From assembly GCA_951406725.2 (NCBI GenBank), contig OX597824.1, positions 86,428,001-86,492,000 on the forward strand: 64,000 nucleotides of DNA, in the 5' to 3' direction. A program made the translations under genes and the position numbers. Shown here piece after piece: positions 318 through 64,000 of the stretch. Numbering within the stretch: position 1 is the stretch's first letter; every line of letters starts with the position of its first letter. Source of the stretch: Octopus vulgaris. Taxonomy: Eukaryota. The notes under the pieces were generated by a model. The model saw only the letters and a list, made by a program, of their open reading frames with translations, had not been told where the DNA came from and did no database searches.

Positions 318-57119
<56,802 letters not shown>

Positions 57120-57496: not shown

Positions 57497-57859
57497 GCAG
57501 GATGGCAACATGTGCAGAAAGCCATACGTTATTCATGCACACGTATATAATTTTCGGCCGCAAGATAAAAATTAAAAAATGGAAGTCACAGAAAAAGCAA
57601 ATTGTAGTACTCAATATTTTGCGCCTTCCTTTTCATTTCTCTTTTATATACTATTATTTATTGCATTCGTTTCTCTTTCTCCTCCTCCTCCTCTTTCTCT
57701 CGCATCACCCTCCTCTCTTTCTCTCTTTCGCTCTTGCTGTCCCGTCAACGTCCGTTGATTTTTTTCCATTCATCAGCTATTTCAGACATGCACTTGTTTA
57801 TATCAATACTCATAACGTATGCGTGTGTGCGTGCGCTTGTATCTACAATATATGTGTGT

Positions 57860-58511
57860 GTGTGTGGTAAGTAGCTTGCTAACCAACCACATAGTTTCGG
57901 GTTCAGTCCCACTGCGTGGCATCTTGGGCAAGTGTCTTCTGCTATAGCCTCGGGCCGACCAATGCCTTGTACGTGGATTTGGTAGACGGAAACTGAAAGA
58001 AGTCCGTCGTATATATGTATATATATGTATGTGCGTGTACATTTTGTGTCTGTGTTTGTCCCCCTAGCATTGCTTGACGACCGATGCTGGTGTGTTTATG
58101 TCCCCGTTACTTAGAGGTTCGGCGAAAGAGACCGATAGAATAAGTACTGGGCTTACAAGGAATAAGTCCCGGGGTCGATTTGCTCGATTAAAGGCGGTGC
58201 ACCAGCATGGCCGCAGTCAAAATAACTGAAACAAGTAAAAATATATATATATATATATATGTTCTTTTACTCTTTTACTTGTTTCGTTCATTTGACTGCG
58301 GACATGCTGGAGCACCACCTTTAGTCGAGCAAATCGACCCCAGGACTTATTCTTTGAGAGCCTAGTACTTATTCTATCGGTGTCTTTTGCCGAACCGCTA
58401 GGGTTACGGGGACGCAAACGCACCAGCATCGGTTGTCAAGCGATGTTGAGGGGGACAAACACAGACACACACACACATACATACATATACGTATACATAT
58501 ACATACATACA

Positions 58512-58545
<34 letters not shown>

Positions 58546-58552
58546 CATACAT

Positions 58553-58612
<60 letters not shown>

Positions 58613-58770
58613 GACAGGCTTCTTTTAGTTTCCGTCTACCAAATCCACTCACAAGACTTTGGTCGGCCCGAGGCTATAGTAGAAGACACTTGCCCAAGAT
58701 GCCACGCAGTGGGACTGAACCCGGAACCATGTGGTTGGTAAGCAAGCTGCTTACCACACAGCCACTCCTG
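57860..58770. mobile_element. Tail-to-tail inverted pair of family A SINEs (57860-58240 +, 58263-58770 -)
   Basis: Two near-full copies separated only by a short (TA)n. Confidence 0.88.
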
Positions 58771-59044
58771 AAAGTACTTGAAAGTACTCTCCCTCACTAT
58801 ACGTGTGCGTGCGTGGATGTGTGTGCGCATGTGTATATGTTTGATAGGATTCCTTACAGTTTCCGTCTGCCAAAATGCAGAAGGCATTGACAGCCTACAG
58901 CGCCTGCCTTCTAAGTGCCGCGCAAAGGAACTGAACTCGGCACCACTTGGTTTCGTAACCATACAGCTATACCTGCGTCTAATATAAACACACACACGCA
59001 TTCACGCGCGTGTGTGTATATGCGTGCGCGCGTATTTAGAAATA

Positions 59045-59262
59045 TATGTACGTATGTATGTTTGTATGTATGTATGAATGTATGAATGTATGTATGTATG
59101 TATGTATGTATGAATGAATGTATGTATGTATGTATGTATGTATGTGTGTGTGTGTGTATGTATGTATGGATGGATGTGTGTGTGTATGTATGTATGTATG
59201 TATGTATTTATGTATGTATGTATGTATATATGTGTGTGTATGTATTTATGTATGTATGTATG

Positions 59263-59296
<34 letters not shown>

Positions 59297-59303
59297 TGTA
59301 TGA

Positions 59304-59336
<33 letters not shown>

Positions 59337-60385
59337 TGTATGTATGAATGTATGTCTGTATGTATGTATGTATGTATGTATGTATGTGTGAATGTATGTA
59401 TGTGTGAATGTATGTATGTATGTATGTATGTATGTATGTATGTATGAATGTATGTATGAATGTATGTATGTATGTATGTATGTATGTATGTATGTATGAA
59501 TGTATGTATGTATGAATGTGTGTGTATGTATGTATGTATGTATGAATGTATGTATGTATGTGTGTGTATGTATGTATGTATGTATGAATGTGTGTATGTA
59601 TGTATGTATGAATGTATGTATGTGTGTGTGTATGTATGTATGTATGAATGTATGTATGTATGAACGTATGTATGAATGCATGTATGTATGTGTGTATGTA
59701 TATATGTGTGTGTGTATGTATGTATGTATGAATGTGTGTATGTATGTATGTATGAATGTATGTATGTATGAACGTATGTATGAATGCATGTATGTATGTG
59801 TGTATGTATATATGTGTGTGTGTATGTATGTATGTATGAATGTGTGTATGTATGTATGTATGAATGTATGTATGTATGAACGTATGTATGAATGCATGTA
59901 TGTATGTGTGTATGTATATATGTGTGTGTGTATGTATGTATGTATGAATGTGTGTATGTATGTATGTAAGAATGTGTGTATGTGTGTATGTATGTATGTG
60001 TGTGTGTATGTATGTATTTATGTATGAATGTGTGTGTGTATGTATGTATGTATGTATGTATGTATGTATGTATGTGTGTGTATGTATGTATGTATGTATG
60101 TATATGTGTGTGTGTGTGTAAATATGTATGTATGTATGTGTGTGTATGTATGTATGTATGTATGAATGTATGTATGTATCTGTGTGTGTATGTATGTATG
60201 TATGTATGAATGTGTGTATGTATGTATGTATGTATGAATGTATGTATGTATGTGTGTGTGTATGTATGTATGTATGTATGTATGAATGTATGTATGTATG
60301 TGTGTGTATGTGTGTATGTATCTATGTATGTATGAATGTGTGTATGTGTGTATGTATAAATGTATGTATGTGTGTGTGTATGTAT
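59045..60385. repeat. (TATG)n-based satellite, about 1.3 kb, with a 108-bp higher-order unit
   Basis: Variant marker gaacgtatgtatgaatgca recurs at 59662, 59770 and 59878. Confidence 0.92.
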
Positions 60386-61688
60386 GCACGAATATTATTG
60401 AGTGAGAGACCAGTGCATGCCATCAAAGTGACACTGGAGTAAATTTGTGAAGCCCAGTACACCCATCATGAGTGCCCGTCCGATAAGGGTATGCCAGGCA
60501 CATGCATCACAGCCATAAGTGCGTGAGGTGGTCATCTCCGATCATGATTAACAGCGCATGAACTTGCAGGTGGAGTCCAGTTGGAATTTTCTTCAGGTCG
60601 AGTAACCCATCCCGCTCAAAAGGTCCCTGAATAAGTGTTTGTTTCCAGAGGTGAATTATTCAAACCTCAAAGAATTCCTCTCAACATATGGCTATGATGC
60701 TCCCCAACTACTTCTGCTCGTGATGAGAGATGCGCGACTCAAAATGAAAACACATGAATAACAGGTCCCTACATAAGCAAGGTAAGGGAACCACAGACAT
60801 TTTTTTTTAACACTGGATGTATAATGGGTCTATGTTAACTAATAACAGGGTGTTTTTGTTTTTCATTAGTAAATTGTAATGAAATTTAGCGTTTTTGTTC
60901 TGCTTTCGTTTGTTTGTTTTTGTTGCTTTCTTCTTTCTTTTTGCTGTTGCTGTGTGTTTGTTTGTTGAGCGAAGCGGTCTTCGTCCGTAGAGAGAGAAGT
61001 CCGATACGTGGTCCTTGGCTATTCGTAAGACCCGCAGAAGAGAAAGCAGGCCAACCCCCGACACCAAGAGCATCGACGGATGGATGAATGCGCATCCAGG
61101 CTCAGCGGTTGCGTAGGAAGTCGGGAATGCTGTTGCTGTGAACATTTGCGTATATTGTTTTCTCTACTATTTCGTGTTAAATATTAAACTTACAAAAGGC
61201 ATTAAATAGTGTTTGATGATATCAGGGGAATGTCTTGCAAGAAAGGTCTAATTTTCAGTCTATTTATACATATTCAGCATTACTGCTTTCTAAGGGAAGC
61301 AGTGACACTATGAAATTTAGAAAGCATGACACCACGTGTCGGGTAAGGTTTGGTGAAATAGTTTGGAAGAAAAATGAATTTTGCTTGTTTGGATGGATGG
61401 AGGAGGGGTCCAGGATTTTGTTGGGGGTGTTGCCCAAATGTTTCGAAAAAAAAAAAACTATATAAGGTGGGAATCGCAATTCGTAACAAATGGACGCATT
61501 TTTATGTATTCTAACTTTGTTGTAGCAGACCGTATGCAATATGAAACGGTAATGCTGCGAAACTGCTGGAAATATTATATTTGCATCAGTTCAGCTAGAA
61601 AGGGTGTTGCCTACCCCTACATCTGCCACTGAAGGAGGGGAGGGATGGATGGATGGATGGAGGGGTGGATTTATTTATTTATTTATTT

Positions 61689-62067
61689 ACTCTTTTACTT
61701 TTTTTACTTGTTTCAGTCATTTGACTGCGGCCATGCTGGAGCACCGCCTTTAGTCGAGCAAATCGACCCCGGGACTTCTTCTTTGTAAGCCCAGTACTTA
61801 TTCTATCGGGTCTTTTTTGCCGAAGCGCTAAGTAACGGGGACGTAAACACACCAGCATCGGTTGTCAAGCAACACAAACACACACACATATATATATATA
61901 TATACGACAGGCCTCCTCCAGCCTCCGTCCACCAAATCCACTCACAAGGCATTGGTCGGCCCGGGGCTATAGCAGAAGACACCCGCCCAAGATGCCACGC
62001 AGCGGGGCCGAACCCGGAACCATGTGGTTGGTAAGCAAGCTACTTACCACACAGCCACTCCTGCGCC
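61689..62067 (-). mobile_element. SINE family A copy with clustered substitutions
   Basis: Matches the family; see the finding at 61913-62009. Confidence 0.88.
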
Positions 62068-62693
62068 TATTTATTTATTTATTTATTTATTTAGGTCAGC
62101 ATTTAGCTCTTATTTAATTAAGAGCCGCCAGGGGGTAATTACGCTGACGTTGGTCTTTGTTTAGGGTTACAGTTGGTTTCAATCTGGCCCTCGTCTAAGC
62201 TTTTACATGGGACCCAATGGGTTGCTGGTACAGTCACTTGGTTGACCGATAAGAAATTTGAAAATTTATTTGGATTTTGCTTAGGAATAAAAAGTCATTT
62301 CACTTGATTACGTAGCTAATAATTGCAGCAGAGGTGGGAGTGAGCAGGGCATTCACGTACTGTTCCCCACCCGCCAATAAAACCTACGTGTATGCATGTA
62401 TGAATGTATGCATGCATGTTTGTACGAATGTATATGCAGGCTATCAGATGTTGTTACACATCGCTGGTCACAATGCGCGTCGCATTGTTTTTAGCCTTCA
62501 AATGACGCCACCCCGCTGGCTAAGCGAGCAGGCCAACAGAAAGAAAGAGTGAGAGAAAGTTGTGGCGAAAGAGTACAGCAGGGATTGCCACCACCACCAC
62601 CACCACCCCCAGCTCACAACGCCCGGTCTGGAAATCGAAACCGCGATCCTACGACCGCGAGTCCGCTGCCCTAACCACTGGACCATTGCGTCT

Positions 62694-62972: not shown

Positions 62973-63201
62973 AGTTTCGGAAAGATTTACACGAATCGGC
63001 TTTGTTTCCTTACATCTTGCAGAAAGACGAGTGTTTTTTGTTTTTTTTTAACGAAATTTTCTGCAAATACCTTTCAGAGTGTGCAGATTACGATTATCTT
63101 GAAATTGGATGTGAGAAAAAAAAACAAAAAATAAAAAAAAATACTAACACACATCTCAATTTTTTTCAAAATCTCAAGTTTCATTTCGTAAATATATATT
63201 A

Positions 63202-63612
63202 GGCGCAGGAGTGACTGTGTGGTAAGTAGCTTGCTTACCAACCACATGGTTCCGGGTTCAGTCCCACTGCGTGGCACCTTGGGCAAGTGTCTTCTACTAT
63301 AGCCTCGGGCCGACCAAAGCCTTGTGAGTGAATTTGGTTGACGGAAACTGAAAGAAGCCCGTCGTATATATGTGTATATATATGCATGCGTGTTTGTGTG
63401 TGTGTGTGTGTGTGTGTATTTGTCCCCCTAGCATTGCTTGACAACCGATGCAGGTGTGTTTACGTCCCCGTAACTTAGCGGTTCGGCAAAAGAGACCGAT
63501 AGAATAAGTACTGGGCTTACAAAGAATAAATCCCGGGGTCGATTTGCTCGATTAAAGGCGGTGCTCCAGCATGGCCGCTGCCAAATGACTGAAACAAGTA
63601 AAAGAGTAAAGA
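63202..63612 (+). mobile_element. SINE family A, near-consensus copy
   Basis: Full head, body and AGTAAA-type tail. Confidence 0.9.
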
Positions 63613-64000
63613 GTATAGCGAGTAAAACTCCCGTCCAATGGACGGTGCTAAGTTGTCAAACATTTAAACCAAATTTTCTCAAAACAACTTGTCCGACCGT
63701 CCCATAGCCCCCCCCCCCTTTGAGAAACACTGATTTAACCTAAATTTGAGACACCAGCAAAAAACGGATTTCGACTGATGTACTTCCGCGTACAAATGCA
63801 CGTTCCCACGGCTTTATTGATCGCATTCTCACCTAGAATCGACTTTTGTAATTTTTTTTCAAGACTTATACACGCCCTGATACCGTCGGTATCTACATAT
63901 CAAATTTGAGCGCAATCGGATGGAGGATGCCCGAGATCCTAGAAAACACACACATAGACAGACAGACAGAACGGATTTTATACAATATATATATATATAT

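What the first reader, a model, noticed from the sequence alone, without database searches (positions are those of the whole stretch)
61913..62009. SINE copy with clustered sense-strand A>G changes: candidate fossil of ADAR hyper-editing
Seen: against sister copies (e.g. 115-260, 51090-51200) this copy has T>C on the plus strand at 61913, 61916, 61918, 61922, 61923, 61930, 61983, 61984, 62003 and 62009, and only one other change (A>G at 62007) in 97 bp; the flanks are near consensus apart from a short deletion. The SINE is on the minus strand, so all ten are A>G in its RNA sense. Established: ADAR gives clustered A>I read as G, and coleoids edit extensively. Inference: an edited SINE RNA was retrotransposed, writing RNA editing into the genome. 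Serious alternative: systematic base-call errors just after the (TA)n tract.
Basis: partly seen in the sequence, partly recalled or inferred. Interest (0 to 1): 0.7.

Follow-up and report, generated by a model that had tools for sequence, protein, structure and literature searches.

The report
Candidate RNA-editing fossil in octopus SINE
One copy of a short jumping element carries ten clustered A-to-G changes on its RNA strand, likely the mark of an RNA-editing enzyme copied back into the genome, but independent DNA data neither confirmed nor excluded the changes, so an assembly error remains a real alternative.

Summary
The SINE copy at 61691-62068 (sense = minus strand) has 10 sense A>G changes and 1 other private change in 97 bp. 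That is 10 of 22 As in the span, 0 of 11 upstream and none in the 3' body, against a 1.4% background. It is the only such cluster in 13,961 callable repeat sites. G is depleted 5' of the changed As (1 of 10 vs 6 of 12, p=0.06), as ADAR predicts. The (TA)n-error rival is unsupported: none of 19 sister copies shows it and phasing offsets do not explain it. Independent DNA is inconclusive. Three of 4 runs hold the unique flank, but none lists a contig over the cluster. A control private path in the same copy appeared in only 1 of 4, and the insertion is not shown in those individuals. The lone SINE RNA does not fold into an ADAR-grade duplex, so a partner in trans must be assumed. Best reading: edited SINE RNA retrotransposed (0.45); artefact 0.30. 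It is one copy, and raw reads would settle it.

The parts
61691..62068 (-). Full-length tRNA-type SINE copy, 5' end at the family start; closest to sisters at 23920, 50843, 54086 and 63195 (3.8-5.2% different once the ten sites are masked)
61913..61930 (-). Sub-cluster 1: 6 of 10 sense As read G (61913, 61916, 61918, 61922, 61923, 61930)
61931..61982 (-). Unchanged spacer: 0 of 7 sense As changed (3 of them follow a G)
61983..62009 (-). Sub-cluster 2: 4 of 5 sense As read G (61983, 61984, 62003, 62009), plus the single sense T>C at 62007
62004..62014 (-). B-box-like motif, hit by the changes at 62009 and 62007
   Evidence: seen in sequence; box consensus recalled, not from a call
62047..62057 (-). 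A-box-like motif, unchanged
   Evidence: seen in sequence; box consensus recalled, not from a call
61872..61904 (.). Internal (CA)/(TA) tract, shortened by a deletion on its body side; longest TA run 16 nt
61669..61689 (.). Left copy of a 21-bp (ATTT)n repeat; probable target-site duplication, low complexity so not proof
62073..62093 (.). Right copy of the 21-bp (ATTT)n repeat
62102..62309 (.). Unique right flank, matched by single-copy contigs in runs X1 (from 62112), X2 and X4 with 0, 1 and 0 other letters; absent in X5
63195..63614 (+). Oppositely oriented sister copy 1,123 bp away (83% over 413 nt); a possible duplex partner only for a transcript made at this locus; has no cluster
57005..57119 (-). 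Probable first coding exon of an asparaginase-plus-ankyrin gene running on the minus strand to the window start, 4.6 kb from the SINE; same sense as the A>G changes
   Evidence: Pfam Asparaginase, Asparaginase_C and ankyrin hits on 3 of 5 pieces tested, none on this exon; its TGGTIG motif is recalled as the asparaginase active site

Best explanation
This SINE copy carries ten clustered A-to-G changes on its sense strand, likely because ADAR deaminated the SINE RNA while part of it was paired with an antisense SINE transcript, and that edited RNA would then have been reverse-transcribed into the germline. Shown: the cluster, its strand, its confinement to 97 nt, a full-length copy with a tail and a probable target-site duplication. 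Inferred: a Pol III SINE transcript, pairing in trans over part of the head, A-to-I editing of about 45% of the As there, a LINE reverse transcriptase reading inosine as G, and inheritance. Not shown: that genomic reads carry the letters.
For: 10 of 11 private changes in the span are one type, in SINE sense; 10 of 22 As vs 1.4% background. It is the only such cluster among 568 private differences at 13,961 repeat sites; the next best 100-bp count of any type is 5. G before the A in 1 of 10 changed vs 6 of 12 unchanged sites (p=0.059; combined neighbour permutation p=0.021); 5' G depletion holds across metazoan hyper-editing, and octopus has an exceptionally high hyper-editing rate (PMC5625713, passages). 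No indel inside the cluster; 5 one-base indels in 3,441 aligned sites over the copies (head plus part of the body); the flank matches independent contigs. 0 of 19 sisters show more than 1 sense A>G beside the same tract. ADAR-type A>G written into DNA by reverse transcription is reported for avian retroviruses (PMC12925331, passage).
Against: No contig piece over either sub-cluster is among the 8 pieces listed per run in 4 of 4 DNA runs, 3 of which hold the flank. A private piece of 57-61 nt was expected in 3 of 4 simulated settings, longer than most listed pieces of 50-58 nt. The SINE RNA alone folds no better than shuffles (z -0.86), and changed As are not more paired than unchanged ones (0.44 vs 0.54, 14 full-length sisters), so the partner strand is an assumption. 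Neighbour bias is not significant singly and fades over the whole head (5' G p=0.21). No diffuse sense A>G excess in sisters (1.4% vs T>C 1.8%). It is a single copy, so strand asymmetry has no replicate. L1 RNA editing was not detected in a cell assay (PMC5224506, passages).
Confidence: 0.45

Rival explanations
1. Technical artefact: the letters are not in the animal's DNA but come from a bad read or a thinly covered consensus, or from edited RNA reads used to polish or fill the assembly.
For: No positive confirmation in 4 DNA runs. The 97-bp span is about one short-read length. The A>G direction is also the sense of the neighbouring minus-strand gene, and an inverted sister lies 1.1 kb away, so hyper-edited RNA from this very locus is plausible. 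Clustered single-type miscalls that enter reference genomes are documented, though as G-to-A in capillary traces (PMC2873906, passages).
Against: Not systematic after the TA tract: 0 of 19 sisters, some with longer tracts and in both orientations. No phasing offset from -6 to +6 explains it (best p=0.11). There are no indels in the cluster and the flank is accurate. The missing contig is weak evidence: the control private path in the body was listed in 1 of 4 runs, X2 and X4 were read only 76-80%, X5 lacks the flank, and paths can break below the listing length. I know no DNA platform error that gives pure T>C runs (recalled).
Confidence: 0.3
2. Later patching: an existing copy was partly overwritten by cDNA from an edited RNA (gene conversion or RNA-templated repair), for example from a transcript of this locus folded with the inverted copy at 63195-63614.
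For: The changes are confined to a 97-nt tract. An inverted partner lies within 2 kb. It would explain a cluster missing from other individuals while a body piece like this copy's appears in X4 (record 23).
Against: No transcript over the locus is shown. Such events should be rarer than ordinary retrotransposition (inference). Record 23 may be another copy.
Confidence: 0.1
3. Clustered mutation at the DNA level, such as an error-prone polymerase (Pol eta type) tract or base damage in single-stranded DNA, with no RNA step.
For: 6 of 10 changed As follow A or T; the strand match to SINE sense has a 1 in 2 chance with one copy.
Against: 5' A/T enrichment is not significant (6 of 10 vs 4 of 12, p=0.21). 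There are no transversions in the cluster, whereas error-prone synthesis usually gives some (recalled). ADAR acting on the cDNA strand of an RNA:DNA hybrid would give the opposite strand.
Confidence: 0.1
4. A small SINE subfamily carries these letters, and the window holds one member. If the source element itself arose from an edited RNA, this merges with the best explanation.
For: A small family would fragment contigs below the listing length.
Against: 0 of 18-19 sisters share nine of the sites. Depth over 61985-62009 is 5,000-8,000 against millions in neighbouring bins, which limits such a family to a small share of copies.
Confidence: 0.05

Closest known systems
ADAR-type A-to-G hypermutation of avian retroviruses (Rous-associated virus, avian leukosis virus; as summarised in PMC12925331, passage)
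   Same: Clustered A>G at nearly half of the As in a limited stretch, carried into DNA through reverse transcription.
   Different: Those are exogenous retroviruses. Here it is a non-autonomous Pol III-type SINE in an invertebrate genome assembly, only ten sites, and not confirmed in reads.
APOBEC DNA-editing footprints in genomic LTR elements (Knisbacher and Levanon, PMC4866542, passages)
   Same: A deaminase footprint fixed in one retroelement copy, strand-specific relative to the element and found by comparing sister copies.
   Different: Those are sense G>A from cytidine deamination of cDNA, in vertebrate LTR elements, and depleted in 19 invertebrate genomes. Here it is sense A>G. In that paper's main text 'ADAR' occurs 0 times and A-to-G once, as a direction filter.
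Hyper-edited SINE RNAs in transcriptomes (PMC5625713; cephalopod repeat editing in PMC9068888; passages)
   Same: Dense A>G clusters in SINEs, with G depleted upstream.
   Different: Those are RNA-versus-genome differences. Here the cluster is in the genome sequence itself.
Octopus tRNA-derived SINEs (OK, OR1, OR2; names recalled, no call)
   Same: A- and B-box-like head, internal microsatellite, short repeated tail, high copy number (23 copies or fragments aligned in 64 kb).
   Different: No reference consensus was available, so the exact family was not tested.

Membership tests
ADAR hyper-editing footprint | Dense cluster dominated by one change type, A>G | tested here: met
   10 of 11 private changes in 97 bp; 10 of 22 As
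ADAR hyper-editing footprint | Changes on the RNA sense strand | tested here: met
   SINE sense is minus, all ten are sense A>G; one copy only, no replicate
ADAR hyper-editing footprint | G depleted 5' of the edited A | tested here: inconclusive
   1 of 10 vs 6 of 12, p=0.059 in the span; p=0.21 over the 33 head As
ADAR hyper-editing footprint | G enriched 3' of the edited A (weak in octopus) | tested here: inconclusive
   5 of 10 vs 2 of 12, p=0.11; octopus has a reduced 3' G preference (PMC5625713)
ADAR hyper-editing footprint | Long double-stranded substrate | tested here: inconclusive
   Self-fold not better than shuffles and changed As not more paired; an inverted sister lies 1.1 kb away; a trans partner cannot be tested
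Heritable genomic fossil of editing | Letters present in independent genomic DNA | tested here: inconclusive
   No piece listed over the cluster in 4 of 4 runs; control private path listed in 1 of 4; insertion not shown in those individuals
Heritable genomic fossil of editing | Genome-wide excess of sense A>G over sense T>C clusters | not testable with these tools
   No whole genome held; collection scans gave no further copies
APOBEC DNA editing | Sense-strand G>A clusters | tested here: not met
   1 sense G>A in the whole copy
Retroposed tRNA-type SINE copy | Dispersed family, A/B boxes, 3' tail, target-site duplication | tested here: met
   23 copies or fragments aligned; 21-bp flanking repeat, low complexity; boxes by recalled consensus; ARAGORN finds no tRNA gene and Rfam no match at gathering score
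Systematic miscall after a microsatellite | Recurs beside the same tract in other copies | tested here: not met
   At most 1 sense A>G and 2 sense T>C in the 30 columns beside the tract in 19 sisters, vs 6 here
Systematic miscall after a microsatellite | New base equals a neighbour at a fixed offset (phasing) | tested here: not met
   Best offsets -1 (6 of 11) and +3 (7 of 11), p=0.11 each before correction for 12 offsets

The most novel reading that the evidence does not exclude
Octopus RNA editing leaks into the germline: ADAR-edited SINE RNAs are retrotransposed, so the genome holds a datable, strand-specific fossil record of A-to-I editing, and editing acts as a mutator of SINE families.
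Probability: 0.45. Interest if true: 0.72.

Novelty: new variant of a known kind. Interest (0 to 1): 0.45.

Why it matters
If real and recurrent, it shows RNA editing becoming heritable through SINE retrotransposition, in the animal group known for extreme editing. It would make testable a question a 2016 review left open, namely whether ADAR editing shapes SINE subfamilies or suppresses their retrotransposition by mutation (PMC4982230, passage). Edited copies could also date past germline ADAR activity and its neighbour preference. If it is an artefact, it warns that clustered A>G in this assembly can mimic or mask editing sites. With one copy and ten sites, the claim is modest until reads and a genome-wide count exist.

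Tried and rejected
Whole genome: none held, so no genome-wide scan. Independent DNA: 4 of 24 listed runs were laid at 97% likeness. The lack of a piece over the cluster is a part without cover and is not treated as proof. The tool skipped the simple repeat beside sub-cluster 1, which shortens any piece there below the listing length. I first read the starts of the flank contigs in X2 and X4 as showing the SINE junction. I rejected this because an empty site with a six-unit (ATTT) array predicts the same start. Exact cluster patterns gave 0 matches in metagenome contigs and genome contigs. A family motif gave 3 matches in metagenome contigs: L003 reads as bacterial, L001 matches the window over 20 nt only and L002 did not appear among the top alignments; it gave 0 in viral contigs and genome contigs. 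These collections are not expected to hold octopus DNA. The idea that the two sub-clusters are the arms of one hairpin was not supported. APOBEC-type editing: wrong change type. CpG decay: wrong direction; three changes create CpG. Rfam: only simple-repeat matches below gathering score, none on the copy. Own errors: searches ('whole'; identities, indels) and 55 used a column range that left out the last part of the SINE body; repeat the counts, identities, control simulation and folds with the full range, while the indel count was not repeated. The simulation is void. Carmi et al. 2011 was not held.

Full report
Setting. No whole genome is held. The window has no N. It holds an asparaginase-plus-ankyrin gene on the minus strand (Pfam hits on 3 of 5 pieces tested), whose probable first coding exon is 57005-57119. 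It also holds 23 copies or fragments of one SINE that I aligned, chosen from the BLAST hits; small fragments and microsatellite-only hits were left out.

Observation. The copy at 61691-62068 has its A- and B-box-like head at the high end, so its RNA sense is the minus strand. Against 18-19 sisters covering each column it has sense A>G at 62009, 62003, 61984, 61983, 61930, 61923, 61922, 61918, 61916 and 61913, and one sense T>C at 62007. Nine of the ten are shared with no sister and 61916 with one. Four other differences in the span are subfamily letters shared by 5-6 sisters. The changes take 10 of 22 As in the span: 6 of 10 in 61913-61930, 0 of 7 in 61931-61982, and 4 of 5 in 61983-62009. None of the 11 As upstream and none in the 3' body is privately changed. 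Sister background is 21 of 1524 As; no sister has more than 3 such changes in total; P = 1.9e-7 for the copy and about 1e-9 for the span after correction. An all-against-all scan of the window's repeats (13,961 callable sites, 568 private differences) finds this as the only outlier: 10 in 100 bp, next best of any type 5.

Anatomy. The copy starts at the family's 5' end and ends in the family tail. It sits between two copies of a 21-bp (ATTT)n repeat (61669-61689, 62073-62093), as expected of an ordinary retroposed insertion, though the repeat is low in complexity. It carries no flanking sequence from a source locus. With the ten sites masked it is 3.8-5.2% from its four closest sisters. An inverted sister lies 1,123 bp away (83% over 413 nt) and is unedited; closer inverted pairs elsewhere in the window are unedited too.

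Does it look like ADAR? G precedes 1 of 10 changed and 6 of 12 unchanged As (p=0.059); G follows 5 of 10 vs 2 of 12 (p=0.11). A joint permutation gives p=0.021 in the span but 0.11 over all 33 head As. PMC5625713 (passages) reports upstream G depletion in both species groups, a reduced downstream G preference in octopus, and an exceptionally high hyper-editing rate in Octopus bimaculoides. PMC9068888 (passages) reports widespread repeat-directed editing in squid and that SINEs dominate the octopus repeat landscape. The fit is therefore right in direction and weak in power. The substrate is the weak point. A sister's head folds no better than shuffles (z -0.86), and in 14 full-length sisters the ten positions are paired with mean probability 0.44 against 0.54 for other head As. 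A lone SINE RNA is not an obvious ADAR target, so pairing with antisense SINE RNA in trans is assumed. Sisters show no diffuse sense A>G excess (1.4% vs 1.8% T>C).

Is it a miscall? All copies with a head have the same TA-rich tract. In the 30 columns beside it, 19 sisters in both orientations, with TA runs up to 46 nt, have at most 1 sense A>G and 2 sense T>C, against 6 here. No offset from -6 to +6 makes the new base a copy of a neighbour beyond chance (best p=0.11). The cluster has no indel, and the flank at 62102-62309 matches independent contigs with 0, 1 and 0 other letters. A one-off bad read or edited RNA reads used in assembly remain possible, the more so as the A>G direction is also the sense of the neighbouring gene. 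PMC2873906 (passages) shows that clustered single-type errors can enter references, though those were G-to-A.

Independent DNA. Of 24 runs listed, I laid the contigs of four from four studies at 97% likeness. X1, X2 and X4 hold the right flank at depth 56, 31 and 32; X5 does not. Eight pieces are listed per run out of 14,927-28,676 laid; inside the SINE they are 50-58 nt and none crosses either sub-cluster. Simulated families of 30,000-300,000 copies predict an unbranched private path over sub-cluster 2 of 61, 57 and 57 nt in three settings, and a break into 42 + 48 nt in the fourth. A listing was therefore likely but not certain if these animals carry the allele. As a control, the body's own non-editing variants should give a path of about 71 nt (shorter if 61834 is a subfamily letter). 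Only X4 lists such a piece (record 23, 61788-61842, depth 30, one other letter), and it may be another copy. X2 and X4 were read to 76% and 80%. The contigs come from SPAdes-like graph simplification (PMC12424806, passage), and the tool warns that holes prove nothing. The insertion itself is not shown in these individuals. I weigh this as about two to one against the allele being shared by these animals (my estimate), and as no proof of an artefact.

Mechanism and odds. Most likely (0.45): a SINE transcript paired over part of its head with antisense SINE RNA, was hyper-edited, and was copied by a LINE reverse transcriptase that read inosine as G. Only the cluster, strand and insertion anatomy are shown; the RNA steps are inferred. 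Rivals: technical artefact 0.30, later overwriting by cDNA of an edited RNA 0.10, DNA-level clustered mutation 0.10, small subfamily 0.05.

Known and new. ADAR-type A>G carried into DNA is reported for avian retroviruses (PMC12925331, passage). Deaminase footprints fixed in genomic retroelements are established for APOBEC G>A in vertebrate LTR elements and are depleted in invertebrates (PMC4866542, passages). A 2016 review says roles for ADAR editing in Alu subfamily evolution had not been determined (PMC4982230, passage), and L1 RNA editing was not seen in one assay (PMC5224506, passages). Seven searches aimed at prior art (listings and abstract starts only, except where passages are cited) showed no paper describing an ADAR-edited SINE fixed in a genome. 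The library lacks most subscription papers, Carmi et al. 2011 was not held, and I opened no supplements, where A>G control counts may lie. PMC8586724, PMC9115989 and PMC5974252 (passages) added nothing on this point. Two unchecked notes of this scan describe sense A>G clusters in an L1 and in an LTR in other genomes; they are leads, not support.

Verdict. The cluster is real in the assembly and far beyond chance. It works like an ADAR footprint, but membership rests on tests that are inconclusive here: neighbour bias, duplex substrate, and presence in genomic reads. New variant of a known kind if true; interest 0.45, and 0.72 if confirmed and recurrent.

Noticed in passing
window 62102-62141: In run X1 the flank contig (depth 56) starts only at 62112, and bin depths imply a second piece of depth about 23 over 62102-62141. 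This suggests X1 is heterozygous for a larger difference right beside the SINE (inferred, table 2).
   Followed up: partly
window 57850-58780: Two oppositely oriented SINE copies only 13 bp apart, tail to tail, just upstream of the asparaginase exon; a strong potential dsRNA, with no A>G cluster in either.
   Followed up: partly
window 300-57119: Asparaginase plus ankyrin-repeat gene (like the 60-kDa lysophospholipase, name recalled) spread over about 57 kb on the minus strand.
   Followed up: partly
window 35746-35960: The 3' end of the SINE is repeated three times head to tail next to a truncated copy.
   Followed up: no
window 47600-49100: Tandem array of roughly 60-bp units with long open frames; related units near 15400-15930 and 36700-36950.
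   Followed up: no
window 17556-17855, 42107-42795, 46425-46944: Open frames that look like broken transposase fragments (mariner/Tc1-like by recall; seen only).
   Followed up: no
window 7585-7833, 49904-50561: Open frames that look like LINE fragments (by recall; seen only); possible relatives of the partner element that mobilises the SINE.
   Followed up: no
window 36216-37183: The same translated stretch appears in two frames about 600-700 bp apart, suggesting a local duplication.
   Followed up: no
window 59000-60390: About 1.4 kb of degenerate (TACA)/(TG)-type microsatellite without gaps, 1.3 kb from the cluster, which suggests a long-read assembly.
   Followed up: no
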